Part shown: positions 2,821 through 31,770 of the stretch, piece by piece
How the letters are laid out: each line of letters begins with the position of its first letter
Position numbering within the stretch: position 1 is the stretch's first letter
Source: Isurus oxyrinchus
Taxonomy: Eukaryota
Reading direction: 5' to 3'
NCBI GenBank assembly: GCA_026770705.1
Contig: JANJGN010000034.1
Coordinates: 6,882,001 to 6,946,000 of the forward strand
Length of the DNA: 64,000 bases
Translations under genes and position numbers: made by a program
Notes under the pieces: generated by a model
Seen by the model: the letters and a program-made list of their open reading frames with translations, nothing else
Told to the model about the DNA's origin: nothing
The model's database searches: none

Positions 2821-2959
2821 TGTTATAAAAGCTACGTACTAAAATTGATTTAAATTCGGAGGCTGAGAACTCCAGTTCCTAACGGGCCTCTGGCTGTTCA
2901 CGCATTCCTCAGATGGGAAATAGTCATTCCTGCGCAGTTGGTTTGTTTTAATTTTTCAG

Positions 2960-3004
2960 CCTTCAACAGGCGATGTGCGCATTCGGAGCTGAGGAAACAA
3001 ATAA
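2960..3004 (+). CDS. Candidate 45-nt phase-1 microexon (xFNRRCAHSELRKQI)
   Basis: Strong acceptor tttgttttaatttttcag, donor A|gtaaaa; open in phase 1; not of the repeat consensus. Confidence 0.4.
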
Positions 3005-3367
3005 GTAAAAAGGCGCCAAACTACGGGAGGGCCGGCTTGAAACCGACAGCCATTGAGAAGAAGGTATCCCAAAAAGCAGGAGATGGGATTATGTTGATTT
3101 TTAGGCATTGCGGGGAAAGTCGGAGGGGCGGTGGGAGTGGGTGTGAGAGTGCTGTGGGGCAGGGGGAGAGAGAGACAGGGAGAAGGTCCGGAACCGGGGC
3201 AGAAAGAGGTCCCAGGCGAAGTTTGCATGCAAGGACAAAAGAGTTCAGAATGATGCTGCAAAAGAATGGAGAAGGACGAGGATCAGGAATAGTTCCAGCT
3301 AAATAAAGTTGATAGAAAAGAGCAGAGAAATGGGCTCTAAGTACCAGACAGGGATTCGAGCGGCAGA

Positions 3368-3376
3368 CCGGAAGTG
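3368..3376 (+). promoter_or_regulatory. ETS/GABP-type motif CCGGAAGTG in a CpG-enriched patch
   Basis: Exact motif about 100 bp upstream of a Kozak-like agcATGG (ATG at 3472). Confidence 0.35.
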
Positions 3377-3692
3377 ATGTGGTTTTGAAAGGAGCAGCAA
3401 GGTCCGCGTAGGCTGCCGAAGTTTGGTCAGTCCATCGTGTGGTCTTTTGGTGCACTGGTAATCTGCTCAGCATGGCGGAAGATGTGAGAGTCTGCTTGGA
3501 ATTTGAAATGCGAATTTCCTCTGAGATGCAGGGGAAAAGGCATCTCAGAAGGCGAGATTCAAACTCTCGATGAGCTGCTGAAGCCGTTCGATTGGGAAAG
3601 ATGTGAAAATAATTCCAGGGGAAGTTATTCAAACCTGGAAATCGGAGACCTTCTTGACAAAGACGGTATTGCAGTGAGACTGCTTGGCTCAG

Positions 3693-3710
3693 AATGTGAC
3701 AAAAATCAAG
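3693..3710 (+). CDS. Candidate 18-nt phase-1 microexon (xCDKNQ), or 3' end of a longer exon (frame open from 3488)
   Basis: tgcttggctcag|AATGTGACAAAAATCAAG|gtagct; the donor falls in phase 1 of ORF 3503-3832. Confidence 0.4.
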
Positions 3711-4789
3711 GTAGCTTTTTGAGAAACCCATGGAAACTGATTAGATTGCGCCTGTCATTTACTCTGTGGTGCGGTATGCATGACTACAATTGGCTTGTTA
3801 ATTCACATGTTCCCCATAATTACTCTGAATAAATTAGTATAACATATACATTGCAAATGCAGTTATATTTCGACATTTTTTGAACAGGAGACCAGCAATT
3901 TGATGAGAAGCAATAGTATGAACAGGCAAGAAGTGACAGAATAATTAAAATATTGAAATCTCCAAACGGTCATTAATTGAAGAAGACAGATTTCCAAGTC
4001 AGGTGTAAGGATGGAGAATGCTAGCGAAACAGCAGGAGGCAAAGTCACGGAGTGAGCTGAACATCAGTTTGAGCAACTGAAATAATTCTGAGCTCCTGAT
4101 AGTGGCTTCTGTATCTGTTGTATTCTGGGTGCTGTTGTGGTCAGTTTCCCTCTCCTAGTGGAATTCCTGCATGTCTTTAGTTTCTTCTTGTTGGGGAAGG
4201 AGCTGGCGAGGTAACCAGAGAACTTAAGTGCACAGTGGCGCTGTGGAAGTCTGTATTACGTGACACTGCTAAATATATTTTCATTGCAGTTGATTAAGCA
4301 ATTGTAATGAACTAGCCAATGCTGTTGACAAACAATAGTATGGCATATCAAACATCTGAACCGACGTTATGCATGCTGAACTATCGCCCAAGGCATATTT
4401 CTACACCAGGTTTTCGGGTGGTTATGGAGAATATTGAAATCATTTGTGTGGTAAGGCTCTGTACATACAGGAGAATTAAATAGGCTGCAGAGGCAAAATT
4501 GGCAGAATCACATTCTGCCCCGTTCATAGAATTCATGCTCTGCTAAATTACATTGGATGCAAGCACAAAGAATATAAGACATGCTACGTCGGAAACAATA
4601 CTGCGAGATTTGAGTTCCTGCTCTTCTCCAGTTTCACTGATAAATCGCTCAGGCGCAGTCTCCTGAAAGGCTTACAGCGTTAAACAGCTGTGTGAAGTCT
4701 TTTGAAATATTACTCAGTTCTCCTGAAGTGGAAAAGCCGGATTTATTTTTATAATTCACTCTTGCTCTCTCTCTCTCTCTCTGCTCCAG

Positions 4790-4825: not shown

Positions 4826-6201
4826 TTAAAAAGTCATATCTACTTTTTACTTCTTCGTGCAGTCATCATACTCAATAAGTCAATGATGCTCTTGACCTTA
4901 ATTATGCATCAGGAAAGTCCACCCTGCATTCATATATGTAGATGAGAAAAGGGATATTCCAACTTGCTGTTTATGGTTTATGGCAAAGCAGGTTCTATGA
5001 ACGTCGCTCCTCCAAAACTCTGTTTAAAATAAACCAAAGAAAAGAAAGTTCCAGAATATCATCTTTGCTGTGCTTTGAGTTGCATAGCCTTTGGATATGA
5101 TGTCAAAATTTATAGTATTAGTTTCAAAACCCTTCAGTCGCAAAATCCATTCCTCATGTCTTTAACGTCCTCCAAACGGTAACCAGCGTTGAAATGGGTA
5201 CTACTATAAATCTGTCCTCCCTTCTATCCTAAATTAAAAATTAGAACCATTAATGGCAGCACTTTCAGCTGCATGGTTGTATGTTTAGGAGTTAATTACT
5301 TACATTTCCACATGTCCAAAAAAACACTATTTTATATTGTTCCTTGAAATTCAACTATTTCATCAATATTCTGGACAGCTTTACTGATGCAAACATGGAA
5401 CAGATTTTAAATTCACCAAATATATTTAATCAGTTCTTGGGAAAAAATCATATTTTCATCTAAGTTTGAATGCCGCCTAAAAGGTGAATTGTTGAGGAAA
5501 TAATTTGCAACTACGTTCTTCTGGGCTGCATTGTATGGTTCATGTTGAACAATGATCTCCAAACATTTTGACTTACGAATAAAGCTGCTTCATAGCATGG
5601 GTTGTGGAGATAGGATTGTTACGATAAAAATTACTGAGGCATTTTAAAGGTCAGTGGCAAGTTATTTGAAAATGTATAACAGTATGGTGTTGGATTATGG
5701 TAGAAATAATAGGACCCTCCGTATTGAATTGAAAACAATGCTGGGAAATGGCAGAAAAGCAAAATAATTCAGGTTTTCAGATAGATGCATCAATAGAAGT
5801 GGAAATATATGTGAATGAGGCCTTTAGAATCAAATTTCAAAAAGTGTACATTTCAGGAGCAAAATATTTGTGAAGTTCTTAGCAAATATATTGCCACAAA
5901 GATGATAGGGCAGAATTTTACGTTCGTCGGTCAGGTGGGTCCAACCGAATCGGCAGCGGGCGGCTGGCCAATTGCAGCTGATGAAATGGGCCATGCGCCA
6001 TTTTCCGTTGGCAGTCCAATTAAGGCCCGCCCTGCAGGTAAGCGACTCCCGTGGAGGATGGGAAAATAGTTGTGGGGGCGGGTGGCTTCAGACATGTTAC
6101 TCCCATGGGCAAACGGCAGCCTGCATAAAGTGTGGCCAGAGAGCCTACTTGCGGCATAGCACCGTGGCCATTCAAAGAGAGAGGTCCGAGTGGACAGCAG
6201 C

Positions 6202-9120
6202 ATGATCATGAGGAGGAAGTGGACGGTGTGGGGGGCAGGCTACAGGCGATTTTGCGATGCAGTCCTTATTGTCCTTCTGCAAGAGGTGGGCTTCCGTTGG
6301 CACCTTCTGTATCCAGAGGATTTGGAGGAGGAGGGCCTCCCATGCCACCAACCAGGCGTGGGAGGAGGAGGTTGACGCTGTAAGTGCGGTTGATGATGTG
6401 CGGTGCACAGGCACTCAGTACAGGAAACAATTCATTGATTTGCTGCGCTCTGGAAGGATGACTATCATGACTGCCTTGGCCATTTGACCCAGAAGGCAGC
6501 CTGAGACTATGGCTCACCCCACCTCCCACCCTCATTTGCTGCTGTTACTGCATAGGGCAGCAGTCGCAAGCTAGGTGGGCAAATGAGTACTGGCCATCCT
6601 TACACCAGCCTAAGTGGTTGTAGAGAAGAGTTCTCCCGACAGCATGTGTTTGTCTTTGTGGCTTTTGAGTATTCTGCGGACAACCTGCACTGAAGGCCGC
6701 ACAGCAAATGCACAGAACTCCACCGCAAGTCATATTTATGGTATTGAGTTGTTGCAAGGTGTGCTTCAAGTAGTTTAGGGCAAGTACCATCTATTGACAT
6801 CTGCGTTGCACCTAGTTTCTCCTCCTTGACATCGGTGCTAAGAGACATATGCTATTCAAAGTGCCCAATGCCGAATCTGTCCAAGGTGGCCAATGGGGAA
6901 GTGTGTTGGGACCAGCCGTGTAATCTTCTGAGGACTGATCACCAGTACTGTGGACAGGAGCTGCTGGAGACCTTAGAGGGACCACTGTGGTTGGGGTGTG
7001 GCAAGCGCCTGCACACTAAATGAGCGAGCAGCCCCAATTAATCCTCTTCACTTTTTTGCAGGCAAAAACACACCACAATGCCTGGAAATGGCAAAGGACT
7101 GGAGGTGGGCGCACACTCATGCAGCGACTCAGGCGTTTTGAAGTGCAGGCCATGGAGCTGGGCAGGGTTCAGGAGCCAGGGCAGTCCGAGGCAGCAAGGC
7201 TGGGGTCCAGCAGGCAGGTATTTGAGGTTCACAGTCCCATTCACTCTGTCTGCACACAATTCAACCCACTCGTGGTTGGTGTAATCGTTAATGCTGAAAC
7301 AATGCTCGTAAAAGTTCTGAAACATTCTGACGTGTGGATCAAACAGACAGGATCCTCATCCCCTTGAGGAATCGTGTCTCCACCACGTTTCAAAGTCACA
7401 CTATTCCATTCAGGATCACTATCACCACGGTCTAATTCCATTGGATCGCTGCTGCACGTTAAAAAACTTATTTTATATGAGTGCCTTTGCGACCTCCAGC
7501 ACCCTTTCCCCCAGTGTGCCCAACATTACTCTGTCCAAACAATCGTCAGCATCTCAGCTGTGAGATTCATGTCACTCAGCTGAGATGAATTCCACCACAA
7601 AACTCATCCCTATGCCAAGGGGAAATATTGCCTTCTGCCCACCCGGTCTATGCCCCCCCCCCCCCCCCCCCCTTATGGAAAGAAGGTCAGTAATGTGACC
7701 TCTCAGTCTCCTGTGATCAACGGCAAATCTCGCTACTGTTTGTGATGCTTCCTCAGACCCACAACTGTGCAGTCGACAAAGCATCTAGGTCAGGTACCTC
7801 TGCACTCTCCCCACTCCTATTGTTCATAACACGCAATGCAGCATCTCTGAAGGTATCTGACCAGTTGGCCTGCATATCCGTTTAATGTTTTGGTCTTTTC
7901 TTGACTCCTTTTCATCTCACCAACTTTCTTCTCCTTAAGGTCTTGAAGGGTGAGCGACTTATGAGCCTGGGAAGGAAAATGATGAAAGGTTGAAGTGAAT
8001 GTACGCTAACTTATGCACTGTCAGTGTTGTTAATTTCAGCATCACCAGCAGAGCGACCCGCACATCAACCCTGCTGTCTCCGCTACCAGCCTGTGGGCCA
8101 AAAAGTGCAAATTGCGACACAGCAAATTTCTCAAAACTCTTGACATCGTCAGGTTGGTCCGTCTTGTATTTCAGGCACACAACATCATCACTCACTTTCA
8201 AGGAGAGACGCCCAGCACAGTGTTGATACTTAACGACCATATGAACCATCATGGTCCCCGTCAGACACAGTTTCTCAACCGCTTTGACGGAATCCTCCCA
8301 GTTCTGGATATAAGTCAGCCATTCAACAGCGCAGACACACACACCTCGATGGGGCCTTTACAGTAGGTAGCGTCTTGGTTCACAGTTGAGATCGCTGGAG
8401 GAGACGGTCAGGGCAGAGAATGCCAATGGCAAAAGCAGCTATAGGGCTACAAGGAACGAGGCACATGCTGAGACCAGCACTGATGACGTGCCTCTGGTGT
8501 TGTGCCCATTGCAGCAGCAGCAGGAAAGGCGACAGGAAGTGCATTTGCATCTGGCAAGGTTGCTTGAGGGAATGTTTCAGTTGCTGTCTGCGACGGAGGA
8601 GTCTAGACAGATTGCACATGAAGCATCCACCTCAGGGCAGAGCATCAGTGTTCCTTCAAAGAGAGATTGCCGACACCAATAGAGAGTGGCTTCCACCAAA
8701 TTGATCAAAATATGATTGGTTTACGCTCTGACCTGCAAGCACTCACAGCGCTTCTGGCCACAGGTGGTGTTTTGCACTGTGGGAGATCTTGTGGACCTCA
8801 AGAACCAGCAATCAGTGTCCATGCATATGCGGTGAACACGGAGGTAAATTTGGACCTCACGTCGGTGCAGCAGCTGCCTGCCATCGCTGCAAGCTCCTCT
8901 CACATTGCTCCGGATAAGGGCAGCAGCTGCTCCTCCCCTCTGCAAGTAAACATTTCTTCCATTGAGGCTAAGACAATTGGGGAGGTGCCAGTTCTGGAAC
9001 TGGACACTCCCTCCAAGGCGGGGTCATCACAGGCAAATATGGAATCAGAGTCAGCAGGCTGTCTCTCAAGCCACTCCTAGCGATGGGGCGGCACCGAGAT
9101 GTAGCAGCCGATAACATAAG
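6202..9120 (+). pseudogene. Harbinger Myb/SANT-like DNA-binding protein gene (exons about 6202-6457, 7062-7217, 8040-9120), frameshifted
   Basis: RFCDAVLIVLLQEV..LYP / TNQAWEE..AVSAV..RCTGTQYRKQFIDLLRSGR trihelix motif; exon 2 KTHHNAWKWQRTGGG flanked by ttttttgcag and gtattt. Confidence 0.8.
8100..8318 (-). pseudogene. SRP9: Intronless SRP9-like sequence (signal recognition particle 9 kDa)
   Basis: LTYIQNWEDSVKAVEKLCLTGTMMVHMVVKYQHCAGRLSLKVSDDVVCLKYKTDQPDDVKSFEKF aligns without gaps to SRP9 as recalled (W-E-E..AEKLYL.DPMK.R..LKYRH.DG.L..KVTDD.VCL.YKTDQ..DVKK.EKF); start codon position reads CTG; C-terminus diverged. Confidence 0.9.
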
Positions 9121-9399
9121 CATAAGGCACCTAATCCATTGCACGGGTATGTCACTTGTGATTTTGTGATGGCCTTAGAATAGTGACCCATATTTTTGTG
9201 ATCTCTGAAAAGTGGTGTGTGTTCTTTTTTTGGAGAAAATAAATTCCACCCTTGTAAACATGGCTGAGGGTCTTTTGTTTGTGGTGCATTTTTCTTTTTT
9301 CAAATATTTATCATGAGTTTTTGAGTGCACATTGATGTTTCTGTACTAAACCCTTATTTGCAGCTGAACAGGTGGAAGATGTGGCAAGTAAGTGCCATG

Positions 9400-10600
9400 T
9401 CTGCAGGTGCCAGGTAATGTTGTTCCTGCTGATTCATTTGCATGGAGCTAGCTGAAGGCACTTTCAAATAAATTGTCGTGGGTTTCGCTGCCTCCTTGGT
9501 GTAAATGAGAGTCATCATTCCACCCCTTATCATTGCCCTGTGCTTCCTCATCCTTTGAGACACTGTTGGATTCATCATGTGCAGCCTCACCCAGGGCTTC
9601 AAGGTCTTCATTGTCAATGCCATCCCCCCTTTGAACCACAAGATTGTTCAGGGCGCAGCAGACTACCACTATCAGACAGACACGATCTGAGGGGTACTGG
9701 ACTGTGGACCCTGAGCGGCCCAGGCTACAGAAGCCAATCTTGAGAAAACTGAAAGCTCTCTCCACCACAGGCTTGAGGTACCCTGGCTCCTATTGTACCA
9801 AAGCTCAGCTCCTGTTCTTGCATACTGTAGCAGCGTCATGAGTCAACGTCTGAGGGGATAGCCCTTGTCACCGAGCAGCCAATCATCCAGCAGAGCTGGA
9901 GCACTGAAGAGACGCAGCATCTAGGAGTGTCTGAGGATGTTGACATCACGGGAGCTGCATGGATACCTTGCACAGACATGTAAAATCTGCATCCTCTGAT
10001 CACACGCTATCTGCACGTTCATTGAGTGGAAACCCTTTCTGTTGATGAAGGCACTGGATTTACCTTGGCGCCTTGATGGCCACATGTATGCAGTCTACAG
10101 CACCCTGGACGCGTGGGAAGGCAGCAATGGGGCGAAGGCTCTGGTTCGATTTGCCTGACTTGCCTGGTTCCAGCGGAAGTGGATGAAGGTGGATACATGA
10201 ACAGCTGATTGGGAGACACTGCCAAGATCACCCACTGAGCCCTGGAAGGACGCAGCGGCATTGAATTGGAGGGCAAATGTGAGCTTCAGAGTCACTGGCA
10301 TGAGCTGTCCAGCCACACAGTTAGGGGCAATCTCAGGGCCAATCATATGACAGACATAGTTGACTGTCTCCCTTGACAGTTGGAGCCTGCTTCGGCCCTG
10401 TGCCTCAGTTATAATGAGGAAGCAGCTTCACCACCTGTATACCTTGGCAGCTGGATAATGGCATCATCTTTGGCCCCTTGCACCTTGGACAGCCCCTTGG
10501 ACCTGCGCTCCATGGGCTTGTGCCTGGACTCCCAAAAGTGCCTCCCTTAGAGGCTGATAGTCCAGTCTTGGCCTCCTCATGATTCCATCCCTCCATTCAT
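9400..10600 (-). pseudogene. Harbinger (HARBI1-like, DDE_Tnp_4) transposase with stops and frameshifts
   Basis: Motifs LKLTFAL..AAASFQGSVGDL.SVSQSAVH, GAVDCIHVAIKAP, KGFHSMNVQIACD, LLGDKGYPL, VERAFSFLK, CCALNNL. Confidence 0.92.
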
Positions 10601-11785
10601 CCACAGGGGAGCTGCCTCCACTGGAGAGTTCGGAACCCATAACCCCAGGCTAAATGGAGACCTGTGGAATGCTGCGAGGCCAAAAAGGAATGCTGTCTTC
10701 AGAATGCTTTTACTTTACACAAAAAAACTCTTGGACATCGATGAAAACTGCAAACATTCACAGAGTTATGATTTAAACAGTTTCATCAATTATAACTTCG
10801 TGAAAAACAGGAACAACCCCTCTGAGTTCACATATCCCGACATTGCAAAAGTTTTCTTAAATAATCTCCTACCCACCTTCCCCTTGGGCCCGTGCGCCTA
10901 ACTGAAGTTTGCACGGGCCCCTCAAAATCGCACACAATTGGCAAGTTAAAGGGCTTAACGCGTTCTTCAATTAAAGGAGGGCGAGCTGATTGCTCCCACC
11001 CACAGAAATATCGAGATGGGGAGTGCGGATGTCAGCACTGATGTGCGGGAAACGCCATCCGGATGTCAGCCGGAACATTCTGGCCTATATAAGCGTCTAC
11101 GTATGCTTACCTAGTGGTTATGTTGGTCTAGTGCTTACACAGAGAAGTGTAATAATGACTCGGCGCTATGAACTCAAATCACACCATGAAAGCTGTAAAC
11201 ATAAATTTCAATGAATGAAGAGATGCTGGATTGAAACAATCTAAAAATAAAGAAAACCAGAAGTAGTGAGTTTGCAACTTCCAGAAATTTGTGAAACTTC
11301 AGTGACTGCTGTAATACCTAGTGGGGAAGAAATGTGCCTCATGCGGACTGTCCTGAGGGAAGTTCAAGGATTTCGGCAATTACTTCTAGTTTCCCTTGTG
11401 AATGGCCGAGCAACTGATTTAGCTGCGCTTCATTATCAGCTTCTCAAGCTGATTAATTGTGTCCAATAAATGATGGTACTCGCAGAAAGCCCATCACTCA
11501 TAATAATGCTGGTAACAATAATAATTGATAAAAAATAATGATCATTCGATAACTGAAGGCTAATGGCCTCCATCTTAGAAAAGACATTTAAGTTACTAAC
11601 GATGGTTTACTAAAGATGTATATGGAAGATATCAGGACGTCATAACTGCTTGGACACATATAACAAGATGGAACTATTTACTCTAAAATGCAAAAGACGA
11701 AAATAAGACCACACTTGCTCTTAATAGTTTGCCATACTTCTGTACATTGAGCCCACACAGAAGTTTGTGTTTCTAAATTCCATTG

Positions 11786-11896
11786 CAGGATTTTATGCCA
11801 GCAGAGTTTGACGTTCCCGCAGAAGTGCATGAAGTTTAATATGACTCGCTGCAGTTTTCGGTTCTGCCCCCGGACGGTGCGGCAAAATTCTGGCCC
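11786..11896. mobile_element. Short Harbinger-type MITE remnant
   Basis: Ends gcaggattttatgcc ... ggcaaaattctggccc form an imperfect inverted repeat like the Harbinger TIR. Confidence 0.5.
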
Positions 11897-13019: not shown

Positions 13020-13790
13020 TAAAACAGGCAGGAATTATACAGTAAATTGCAGGACCCTTAAGAGCATTAACGGCAGAGGGATCAGGGTGTACAGGTCCAC
13101 AGGTCACTGAAAGTGGCAAAGCAGATAGATAAGGTAGTCAGGATGGCATATGGCAAGCTTGGCTTAATTGGCAGGTGCATGGATTATAAAAGCACGGAAG
13201 ACATCATGCAGCTGTATGGAACCTTGGTTAGGAAGCAAATTGAATATTGCATGCAATTCTGGCCGCCACATTACCAGAAGGATATGGAGGCATCAGAGAG
13301 GTTGCAGAGGAGGTTTGCCAGGATGCTGCATGGCCTGAAAGTTATTGGCTATGAGGAGGTGTTTGAGAAACTCGGATTGTTCTCACTAGAGCGACGGAGA
13401 TTTAGGGGCGACATGATACATGTTTACTAAATTATGAGTGGCATGGACAGAGCAGATAGTCATCAGTTTTTTCCCAGGGTGGAAGAGTCAATTACTAGTG
13501 GACATAGATTTAAGGTGAGAGGAGAAACCTATAGAGGAGATGTGCGGTGCAGGTGTTTTACGCAGAGGTCAGTGAGTGTCTGGAATACGCTGCCTGTGGA
13601 GCAGGTGGAATAACATACGATAGAGGTGTTTCAGAGGCAGATTGACAAATACATGAACAGGATAGGAATGGAGGGATACAGGTCCCGGATGTTCAAAATG
13701 TTTTAGTTGACAGGCAAAATGATCAGCGCAGGCTTGGAGGGCCGAATGGCCTGTTCCTGTGCTGTACTTTTTTTTTTCTTTGTTCTTTGT
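13020..13790 (+). mobile_element. CR1-type LINE 3' fragment
   Basis: LYGTLVRKQIEYCMQFWPPHYQKD..ERLQRRF..LGLFSLERRRFRGD; tail ggccgaatggcctgttcctgtgctgt. Confidence 0.92.
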
Positions 13791-29359: not shown

Positions 29360-31770
29360 AGGGCTGAATAATACACTCCACGATCGAGGGCTTTTCCACC
29401 TTTCTGCTGCATATTATGTGGGGTGACGATGCCGGCGCCGATTACGACATCATCACGGAAGTTTGTACAATAAGGTATACAGGCAGTTAAAATAATCGGG
29501 AGCACATTTGCGTTGCTTAAGGGTAAATTTAAAAGGCAAATCAGTTGCTTAGCTACCCATCTTACTGCAAAAATACGATCAGAAGACAATAATATGTCTT
29601 GAGGGTGGCGTTTATTTAAAGGTGTGGAATCCGTTTTCCTTTCAGGGCAAACTTTGTTCAGTGGTTTTTGAAACTGCAACTGAAACCAAAGTCTTACATT
29701 GCATTCGAAACAGGGAAGTGTTCATTTGATTGTGCAGAGTGATATTTTGGACTTTGTTTTCATGTGGAGGTATCTCTTCACATTCAGAGAGGTCAGTTGT
29801 ATCGTGTATCCCACGTTTCAGGGGTGAACATTCTGGAAGATAGGTGGGAATTGTTGTCTCAGTAGGAATCAGAACCCGCAGTGAAGAGGAAAGGAGCAGT
29901 AGGAGGAGGAAGTGGAGAAGGGTGAGAGGAAGAATGGAACACAGAGAATTTCAAGCTGCAGTGGTCCCTCAGGAAGTGTGCAGAGCAGCGGCAGGACAAA
30001 GTGGTTTGGAAGTGTGCAACAAGCCTCATCAGAGGCACAGACGATCTTACGCTATCCTAAGCGTGTATACGGAACAATTGAGCTGCCTGCAATGAAGTAG
30101 GACTAGGGGTCGAAGATGAAACAGTGTTTCAAGGGCGACTGTAACATGGCTATGCGGGATGCATGCAAAGGAGGACTCATCCAACTGCCTTGGGGACTAC
30201 CTGATTTCTGACGCATTAAAAGTGCCAGTGGCTTTTCTTCCAACTCATAGGCTTATTCGAGGCAGCCAATGGAGACCTCAGTTGAATAAGACATTAACTG
30301 ATCAACATTGCGTCAAGGTGTTCCCCGATACATTTTACCGAAGGGCTGCTAATTACATGTATTTCAAGCAGGATTTCCAAAGTCAAATTTATAGTCCCCG
30401 AAACGTTCCAAATGATTGCCGTTTCCACCAGAGTGCGGGGAATAATTAAAGGACCTTTTGGACAGTCATGCACATTCAAAAACAGAAAAGGGTTATCAGT
30501 CAATCAATGTACAGCTGGTGTGAGACCGTAATTGGCGGGTCATGCAGATGTGTGCCACGTATGCAGATGGCAGTCACGACTCATACATCTTTAGGAGTAC
30601 ACATACACCACGCCTTTTCACTGGCCAGAATTCCTCGGAGGGATAGCTATTGGTTGATATGACTAATCCGGTAAAAATAGTTGATGAAGCTTGTCACAGC
30701 GCCCAGGCCTGACTCAGATTGGTGGGGGAAGAAGTGTAATGCCAGCATTGGAACCATATTGGAGCACAGTGTCAGTCCCATTAACTTGCAGTTGCTATCC
30801 TGGGCAAATCCAGGGGCTGGGTGACACTTTCCAAGTTCTGGACCCTTTACCGCTTTGCAGAGCGTATTAGGAGCGTGATGCTGTCAGGGGCCACTTAAGA
30901 TGTCATGACACCAGTTTCCGACTATGCAGCAGATGGGCAGGTCATATAGTCGACAACTCGCAAAAGGCATGAACCTTATGTGCAGCCACACCCCAGCACT
31001 CCACCCCCAACCACCACCCCCCCCACCCCCACGCCCATCTCGCTTCCACCTACCCCCTCCACCGACATGTCTATAGGCCAATGTGAGCATCAAATAGCAC
31101 TGATGTATTTAGTACGAGGTTCCTGCCCAACCCAACATTTCAACAATTTTAGGAGAGGGCAAGGTCCTTATAGGGACAATTATTGCCCACATTATGGCCC
31201 TTTAATGCCCAGGTATTTATTTTCCTGTGACTGGCGGGAAGACTCCCCAGGTAATATGGGAAGCCCTTAGCTAATCAGATTTCAACCTCGGGCAGGAGGT
31301 TTGTGAACCTCCATTTGAATCCACATTTTACTTTTTGTCATCCTCCTCGCACTTCCCCAGGGCCACACCCGGCCCATTCCAACTCACCCTAGGCCTGTCC
31401 AGTGACAAACCAATTTCCAACTCTCTTCCACCCGGGCCTCTGCTACACCCGCCACCATGAAAGCCCCAAATCTTAGCTGTTCCCAGAACCCCTGGACTGG
31501 TGCTGTCAGGATCGCAGACAGTCCCATTCCTGTCGACAGCAGCTTGTGTCACTTCAGGGACTAGAGAGCTGCCTGCAAGCTGATTGATTGGAAGTTCGCT
31601 CAGCCGGGGACTTCTTCCAAGAAAAGAGAGGAAGTTCCACGTACAATCAATTCAAGCCCATGACAGCTTGAAATGGCTGCAAAGCAGGTAATCTTGGCAG
31701 GGATGAGTTCGCGGCTGATTTTTTGGATGGCAGGATAAGAAACCATGCAAGCCTAAAGATCCTGGCCAGT
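29360..31770. mobile_element. Decayed Harbinger element (possibly two adjacent pieces)
   Basis: Starts gggctgaataat, ends aagatcctggcc; contains a transposase relic. Confidence 0.6.
29844..30900 (+). pseudogene. HARBI1-like transposase relic
   Basis: ALKVPVAF, DTFYRRAANYMYF, NRKGLSVNQ/INVQLV, MCATYADGSHDSYIF across frameshifts. Confidence 0.8.

What the first reader, a model, noticed from the sequence alone, without database searches (positions are those of the whole stretch)
8100..8318. Intronless SRP9 sequence embedded antisense in a Harbinger Myb/SANT gene
Seen: 65 gap-free, stop-free codons matching SRP9, inside the transposon TIRs and next to sequence resembling the Myb gene last exon (acagcgcagacacacacacctcg resumes near 8326). 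No poly-A or TSD is visible. Known: vertebrate SRP9 has introns, and SRP9/14 binds the 7SL Alu domain and assists Alu retrotransposition. The N-terminus (xTYIQNWED) looks unlike the vertebrate MP(Q/Y)xQTWEE as I recall it. Inference: either a one-off retrocopy, or Pack-type gene capture by a Harbinger family, possibly carried in from another lineage.
Basis: partly seen in the sequence, partly recalled or inferred. Interest (0 to 1): 0.72.

Follow-up and report, generated by a model that had tools for sequence, protein, structure and literature searches.

The report
Dead SRP9 mRNA patch in transposon
A decaying 193-base copy of part of the animal's own spliced SRP9 messenger RNA sits inside one dead copy of a very common DNA transposon, likely pasted in once as a reverse-transcribed patch at a DNA nick or break; this is ordinary genomic debris, not a foreign gene or a gene that the transposon spread.

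Summary
Window 8125-8317 (minus strand) is nucleotides 2-194 of the host's own SRP9 coding sequence with both introns removed: 173 of 193 bases match the three-exon host gene on contig C6, whose protein starts with the same 'unusual' N-terminus. It lies in the last exon of the Myb/SANT gene of a decayed 5.2-kb Harbinger. 20 of 20 near-full-length sisters have the empty site, and each host exon finds only itself and this window. The fragment decays neutrally (17 amino-acid-changing, 3 silent differences); staying stop- and gap-free has about an 18% chance. It is shared with a related species. It has no poly-A and no target duplication, is cut at both ends, and ends at the only place in the mRNA model that matches the target's last five bases. 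Best reading: a one-off, microhomology-guided cDNA insertion (class-2 templated insertion; tailless-retrocopy-like). Pack-type spread and foreign origin are not supported. Low interest.

The parts
5908..11085 (.). Decayed Harbinger (PIF/Harbinger-type) DNA transposon copy, 5178 bp with the insert; terminal inverted repeats at both ends; flanking 3-mers ATA / TAT do not match
   Evidence: Ends align with 20 sisters; 11 of 16 sisters with both ends have identical 3-bp target duplications; 14.3% from the majority of 20 sisters, 22 indels besides the insert
6076..6484 (+). First coding exon of the Myb/SANT gene, frameshifted; the Myb domain lies at about 6247-6484
   Evidence: Sister frames hit Pfam PF13873 over the cut-off (2 of 6 tested) and map here by tblastn in several frames; the window's own pieces gave no Myb hit
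8040..9095 (+). Likely last exon of the Myb/SANT gene (acceptor AG at 8038-8039), broken by the insert and by other indels
   Evidence: Same acceptor in sister L041 and tblastn of its frame to 8017-9095; exon status inferred from splice signal and position, no transcript seen
8125..8317 (-). Processed fragment of host SRP9 mRNA, CDS nt 2-194: exon 1 (8247-8317), exon 2 (8178-8246), first 53 nt of exon 3 (8125-8177); no UTR, no poly-A
   Evidence: 173 of 193 nt identical to the host CDS spliced in script from G000:C6; spliced host contigs in runs X21 and X24 lie over 8125-8309
8126..8130 (+). ATTTC shared by the transposon target and the mRNA's complement at the insert's 3' end (likely priming or annealing site)
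   Evidence: Only 5-nt match to the target end among 716 mRNA positions; chance of a shared 5-mer near a random junction 1.6-5.7%
8313..8317 (+). Weak homology at the insert's 5' end (4 of 5 bases shared with the resumed transposon sequence)
   Evidence: Alignments; not significant alone (a shared 3-mer arises 39-72% of the time)
9451..10649 (-). Harbinger transposase gene (DDE_Tnp_4), broken by stops and frameshifts
   Evidence: Pfam PF13359 on window pieces and on sister frames; 414-codon frame in the majority of sisters maps here, 5 stop-creating changes in the window copy

Best explanation
The insert is a single, neutrally decaying, doubly truncated copy of the host's own spliced SRP9 mRNA, likely written in once by a cellular or retrotransposon reverse transcriptase at a nick or break inside one Harbinger copy, with a short base-paired match likely guiding the junction. 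Shown: host origin, loss of both introns, single copy in the searches made, no poly-A, no target duplication, 0-7 target bases lost, neutral decay, presence in a related species. Inferred: the free end of the cut target (...ATTTC-3') paired with GAAAU at CDS nt 189-193 and primed copying inside the mRNA (or a ready-made cDNA annealed there); copying stopped at CDS nt 2, where a 4-of-5 match allowed end joining. The transposon was most likely a passive target. Which enzyme did it is not tested. About 0.95 for 'dead one-off processed fragment of host SRP9', about 0.7 for the microhomology-guided route.
For: Host gene with three coding exons of 72, 69 and 120 nt and GT-AG introns on contig C6; spliced host contigs in 2 of 2 RNA-labelled runs laid. 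Insert 173/193 identical and joined exactly at both splice junctions. Empty site in 20 of 20 long sisters and 43 distinct copies among 47 loci. Only host plus window found with each exon. Differences by codon position 6/9/5, 17 amino-acid-changing and 3 silent, silent share not different from neutral (p 0.44); between the window and organism B 4 amino-acid-changing and 1 silent. Contigs of organism B bridge both junctions in 3 of 3 runs laid, from 3 studies. Insert ends at the only 5-nt match in a 721-nt mRNA model. The same signature (spliced, no poly-A, no duplication, microhomology, both ends cut) is described for class 2 TSIPs (PMC5110952, passages) and for RT-product-mediated break repair (PMC4516963, passages).
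Against: The left junction is not clean: the window reads CACAGCAAATTTC where simple priming predicts CACATCATTTC, so that reading needs two later changes, whereas two readings without any exact homology need only one. The nick position was chosen after seeing the data; corrected chance of the 5-mer is 1.6-5.7%. The right-hand homology is not significant. The insert's age (19 of 193, 95% interval 6-15%) cannot be told from the element's (13-14%; p 0.09-0.20), so capture at the time of transposition is not excluded. Genome searches score only the best candidates and can miss diverged copies; sisters were the top-scoring 40 of 332, 1974 and 4671 candidates.
Confidence: 0.85

Rival explanations
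1. A conventional, poly-A-primed retrocopy that later lost its 3' part (rest of exon 3, UTR, tail) by a deletion between the two ATTTC words.
For: The host mRNA has AATAAA signals at +452 and +637, so tailed templates likely exist; a microhomology-guided deletion would leave the same 5-mer at the junction.
Against: No duplicated target sequence on the other side, where a deletion at the 3' end would have left it; no piece of the rest of exon 3 or the 3' UTR in the window or elsewhere in the genome search; the deletion would have to stop within a few bases of the insertion point; organism B has the same junctions.
Confidence: 0.08
2. Pack-type capture: the Harbinger took up the SRP9 piece during gap repair or transposition and moved with it.
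For: The insert lies between intact terminal repeats; insert and element ages overlap; source and insert are on different contigs; the window copy's flanking 3-mers do not match, so its history is not fully read.
Against: No second filled copy. The source is spliced RNA, not genomic DNA; the animal Pack-TIR survey discards such cases as retroduplicates and finds most single-copy cases arise without transposition (PMC8277862, passages). The window's transposase differs from the sisters' majority neutrally (59/41/55 by codon position, 37 silent to 113 amino-acid-changing), so it did not descend from a separate active lineage.
Confidence: 0.04
3. A functional retrogene, chimeric Myb-SRP9 exon or antisense regulator of SRP9.
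For: Stop- and gap-free over 63 codons; kept in two species.
Against: No start codon, last 22 codons missing, 15 of 63 residues changed, no purifying selection; an open frame has about an 18% chance at this age; the Myb gene around it is broken at many places.
Confidence: 0.02
4. SRP9 sequence carried in from another lineage (horizontal transfer with the transposon).
For: The N-terminus differs from mammalian SRP9 chains in PDB.
Against: The host's own gene has that N-terminus and is 89-92% identical at the nucleotide level in all three exons; at one site (8229) the insert keeps the base that organism B's SRP9 gene still has.
Confidence: 0.005

Closest known systems
Class 2 templated sequence insertion polymorphisms (PMC5110952, passages read) and RT-product-mediated double-strand-break repair in mouse zygotes (PMC4516963, passages read)
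   Same: Spliced internal mRNA fragment, cut at both ends, no poly-A, no target duplication, tiny target loss, short homology at the junctions, source on another chromosome-scale contig.
   Different: Those are human polymorphisms or induced breaks in mouse; this one is old (about 10% diverged), shared by two species of a non-mammalian vertebrate, and sits in a DNA transposon. No break was observed here.
Tailless retropseudogenes (PMC5322556, passages read)
   Same: 3'-truncated copy whose end is complementary to the target, ending in a purine- and A-rich stretch of the RNA; 5'- and 3'-truncated mRNA forms are expected by that paper.
   Different: The paper's cases have 8-35-nt target duplications and nearly complete 5' ends; this has neither. 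The paper reports them in therian mammals and a lizard; 'fish' and 'shark' occur 0 times in its main text.
Pack-TIRs of animals (PMC8277862, passages read) and plant Pack-MULEs
   Same: Host gene piece between the terminal repeats of a DNA transposon; microhomology at a breakpoint; single copy, like most of the survey's cases.
   Different: Template is spliced RNA; such cases are excluded from that survey as retroduplicates; no cis source nearby; no sign of mobilisation.
Ordinary processed pseudogene (poly-A primed; general knowledge)
   Same: Introns precisely removed, neutral decay, unlinked to the source gene.
   Different: No 3' UTR, no poly-A, no target duplication.

Membership tests
Processed (RNA-derived) gene fragment | Introns of the source gene precisely removed | tested here: met
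   Both exon junctions joined without extra bases; spliced host contigs match across them
Processed (RNA-derived) gene fragment | Source gene in the same genome, closest relative | tested here: met
   173/193 nt to host CDS; 76% of residues to host, 52% to a mammalian chain; no multi-species tree could be built (one search found no homologues)
Processed (RNA-derived) gene fragment | No purifying selection | tested here: met
   17 amino-acid-changing, 3 silent; codon positions 6/9/5; small numbers
Classical poly-A-primed processed pseudogene | 3' end of mRNA with poly-A tail | tested here: not met
   Insert ends at CDS nt 194; no UTR piece in window or genome search
Classical poly-A-primed processed pseudogene | Target-site duplication | tested here: not met
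   Empty site versus filled site shows none
Class 2 templated insertion / RT-mediated break patch | No duplication, no poly-A, small or no target loss | tested here: met
   0-7 target bases lost depending on how the junctions are read
Class 2 templated insertion / RT-mediated break patch | Microhomology at one or both junctions | tested here: inconclusive
   5-nt word at the 3' end (chance 1.6-5.7%), but adjoining bases carry later changes; 5' end 4 of 5, not significant
Class 2 templated insertion / RT-mediated break patch | Made at a pre-existing double-strand break, independent of a retrotransposon endonuclease | not testable with these tools
   Sequence alone cannot show the break or the enzyme
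Tailless retropseudogene | 3' truncation at a site complementary to the target | tested here: met
   Unique 5-nt match among 716 positions lies at the insert's end
Tailless retropseudogene | 8-35-nt target-site duplication | tested here: not met
   None
Tailless retropseudogene | 5' end nearly complete (strict screen) | tested here: not met
   Starts at CDS nt 2; host RNA contigs run 58-64 nt beyond 8309 into the 5' UTR
Tailless retropseudogene | Dependence on a relaxed L1-type element in the genome | not tested
   Not searched; earlier AI notes on this genome suggest a Tx1-type LINE, unchecked
Pack-TIR / Pack-type transposon | Host sequence between the terminal inverted repeats | tested here: met
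Pack-TIR / Pack-type transposon | Captured from genomic DNA, not an intronless copy of a multi-exon gene | tested here: not met
   Both introns absent; exclusion rule in PMC8277862
Pack-TIR / Pack-type transposon | Amplified with the captured piece (multicopy class) | tested here: not met
   One copy; empty site; searches may miss very diverged copies
PIF/Harbinger (the host element) | DDE_Tnp_4 transposase plus Myb/SANT gene, short terminal repeats, 3-bp target duplication | tested here: met
   Pfam PF13359 and PF13873 in sisters, mapped to the window; 11 of 16 sisters with identical 3-bp flanks; the window copy's own flanks differ

The most novel reading that the evidence does not exclude
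An RNA-derived Pack-Harbinger: the cDNA patch filled a cut made in an active Harbinger and the filled element then jumped to this site, which would show that a DNA transposon of a non-mammalian vertebrate can pick up and move spliced host mRNA, a route left out of the animal Pack-TIR survey. Not excluded because insert and element ages overlap and no outgroup with the empty orthologous element has been seen.
Probability: 0.04. Interest if true: 0.45.

Novelty: new member of a known kind. Interest (0 to 1): 0.14.

Why it matters
It matters little by itself. It is a cleanly readable natural example of a spliced-mRNA patch without tail or target duplication, fixed in a germline outside mammals, with the pre-insertion site known from dozens of sister transposon copies, and it could serve as a presence/absence marker between related species. 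It says nothing about SRP9/14 or Alu-type biology and shows no gene transfer. Only if a second filled copy or an insert-at-arrival history were shown would it bear on how DNA transposons capture genes in animals.

Tried and rejected
The repeat finder did not list the terminal repeats among its longest pairs; they were found by alignment to sisters. No RNA holder was listed for the insert, and the two RNA-labelled runs laid gave only host-type contigs; this is no evidence on expression. A reading of the right junction as a 2-base target duplication was dropped: the alignment without a gap needs only three substitutions. A 110-codon plus-strand frame across the insert (8034-8366) is a by-product of the frameshift; not pursued. 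One sister locus (L047) holds a single 14-mer shared with SRP9 at position 458, outside the element; treated as chance. Of 47 loci, 43 distinct empty sites were found; at least three loci overlap others, and I did not trace each of the four. Seven poorly aligned sisters were left out of the substitution spectrum. Literature searches: (listings only, apart from the four papers read in passages); none of the listed papers describes this locus, but the searches were few and cover open-access papers only; no supplements were read.

Full report
Observation. The minus strand of 8100-8318 translates without a stop and is SRP9: eight distinct PDB SRP9 sequences match, best E 5.3e-16, and Pfam PF05486 just passes its cut-off.

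Source. The window's genome (G000, 4.98 billion bases; earlier AI notes call it a shark, not tested by me) has one SRP9 gene on contig C6, while the window lies on C34. Its coding exons are 72, 69 and 120 nt with GT-AG introns and give an intact 86-residue protein. Two RNA-labelled runs each give one spliced contig of this gene that lies over the insert with 19 differences and runs on into host UTR and exon 3. The insert equals CDS nt 2-194, joined exactly at both splice junctions, 173 of 193 bases identical. So the template was the host's spliced mRNA; foreign origin is refuted.

Host element. The insert lies 85 nt into the likely last exon of the Myb/SANT gene of a Harbinger spanning 5908-11085. 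Sisters carry Pfam PF13873 and PF13359 frames that map to 6247-6484 (+) and 9451-10572 (-); 11 of 16 sisters with both ends have identical 3-bp flanks. The family is large (4671 candidates, 40 scored). The window copy is dead: 14.3% from the majority of 20 sisters, 22 other indels, stops in the transposase. Its transposase changes are neutral in pattern (59/41/55 by codon position), so it is a decayed copy of the same master, not a separate active branch. The sisters were picked as best hits and are therefore biased towards little-diverged copies (median 6%).

Copy number. All 20 long sisters align straight across the site without the insert; 43 distinct copies among 47 loci have the intact empty-site motif. 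The insert as query returns the window and the three host exons only (4 of 4 candidates). Each host exon as query, the more sensitive direction, returns the host and the window only (2 of 2 candidates); a 53-nt, 89% match was found, which gauges sensitivity. More diverged copies could be missed.

Age and selection. Contigs of a second species (organism B) bridge both junctions in 3 of 3 runs laid, from three studies, with 13-14 differences over 298-315 nt; a run of the window's own species matches with none, but may be the source sample. The insertion thus predates that split and is no assembly artefact. Against the host, differences fall 6/9/5 by codon position, 17 amino-acid-changing to 3 silent (neutral expectation 25% silent, p 0.44); one silent difference is a change in the host gene itself. 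Between the two species the insert differs at 5 sites, 4 amino-acid-changing. With 19 substitutions and the local indel rate, an open, gap-free frame has a chance of about 0.18. Insert divergence (9.8%, interval 6-15%) is nominally lower than the element's (13-14%) but not significantly (p 0.09-0.20): the insert came into the copy either later or about when it arrived.

Junctions and mechanism. The empty site reads ...CATCATTTC|AGCCAG.... There is no poly-A and no duplication; 0-7 target bases are lost. The insert's 3' end falls at the only place in a 721-nt mRNA model where the target's last five bases match (1 of 716 positions); allowing for slack in choosing breakpoints the chance is 1.6-5.7%. 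The 5' end has a 4-of-5 match, not significant alone. The left junction carries one or two later changes, so it cannot be read to the base, and two homology-free readings need one change fewer. I infer internal priming by the cut target end, or annealing of a ready-made cDNA, followed by end joining. This matches class 2 templated insertions (PMC5110952, passages) and spliced-mRNA capture at breaks in mouse zygotes (PMC4516963, passages). It works like a tailless retropseudogene but fails that class's duplication and 5'-completeness criteria (PMC5322556, passages). It is not a Pack-TIR by the animal survey's rules, which discard intronless copies of multi-exon genes, and that survey finds most single-copy cases arise without transposition (PMC8277862, passages). 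Earlier unchecked AI notes report other tailless retrocopies in this genome, one inside another transposon; they led me to the tailless paper and suggest such events are common here, but I did not test them.

Verdict. A real but ordinary feature: a dead, one-off processed fragment of host SRP9 nested in a dead Harbinger. New member of a known kind; interest 0.14. The most novel reading left open, an RNA-fed Pack-Harbinger that moved once, has about 4% probability.

Noticed in passing
window 5908-11085: This copy has a heavy, transversion-rich load: 335 transitions and 370 transversions from the sisters' majority, against roughly 200 and 90 in cleanly aligned sisters; C>A 5.5% versus 0.95%. The insert shows the same 10:10 ratio. 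It may mark a fast-mutating region of contig C34, greater age, or bias in how sisters were picked.
   Followed up: partly
window 5905-5907 and 11086-11088: The copy's flanking 3-mers are ATA and TAT, not a duplication; sister L052 shows the reverse pair. Decay, or recombination between copies, is possible.
   Followed up: no
window 29988-30658 (+): A second, more distant Harbinger transposase remnant, 31-44% identical in residues to a sister's transposase.
   Followed up: no
window about 11783-11896: A roughly 115-bp element whose ends resemble the Harbinger terminal repeats, likely a non-autonomous miniature copy (seen).
   Followed up: no
L054:1145-2314 and L044:4678-5829: Sister copies keep long open transposase frames (390 and 384 codons) in a family with thousands of candidate copies.
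   Followed up: no
L002 about 480-1440 (host SRP9 intron 1): About 1 kb of G-rich tandem repeat begins just inside the first intron of the host SRP9 gene.
   Followed up: no
window about 13050-13770: A stretch that looks like the 3' end of a CR1-type LINE (recalled resemblance); it matches repeats in the host SRP9 region but gave no Pfam hit.
   Followed up: partly
window 2854-3740: Long overlapping stop-free frames (150 and 239 codons) with no Pfam match; possibly a promoter or first-exon region.
   Followed up: partly
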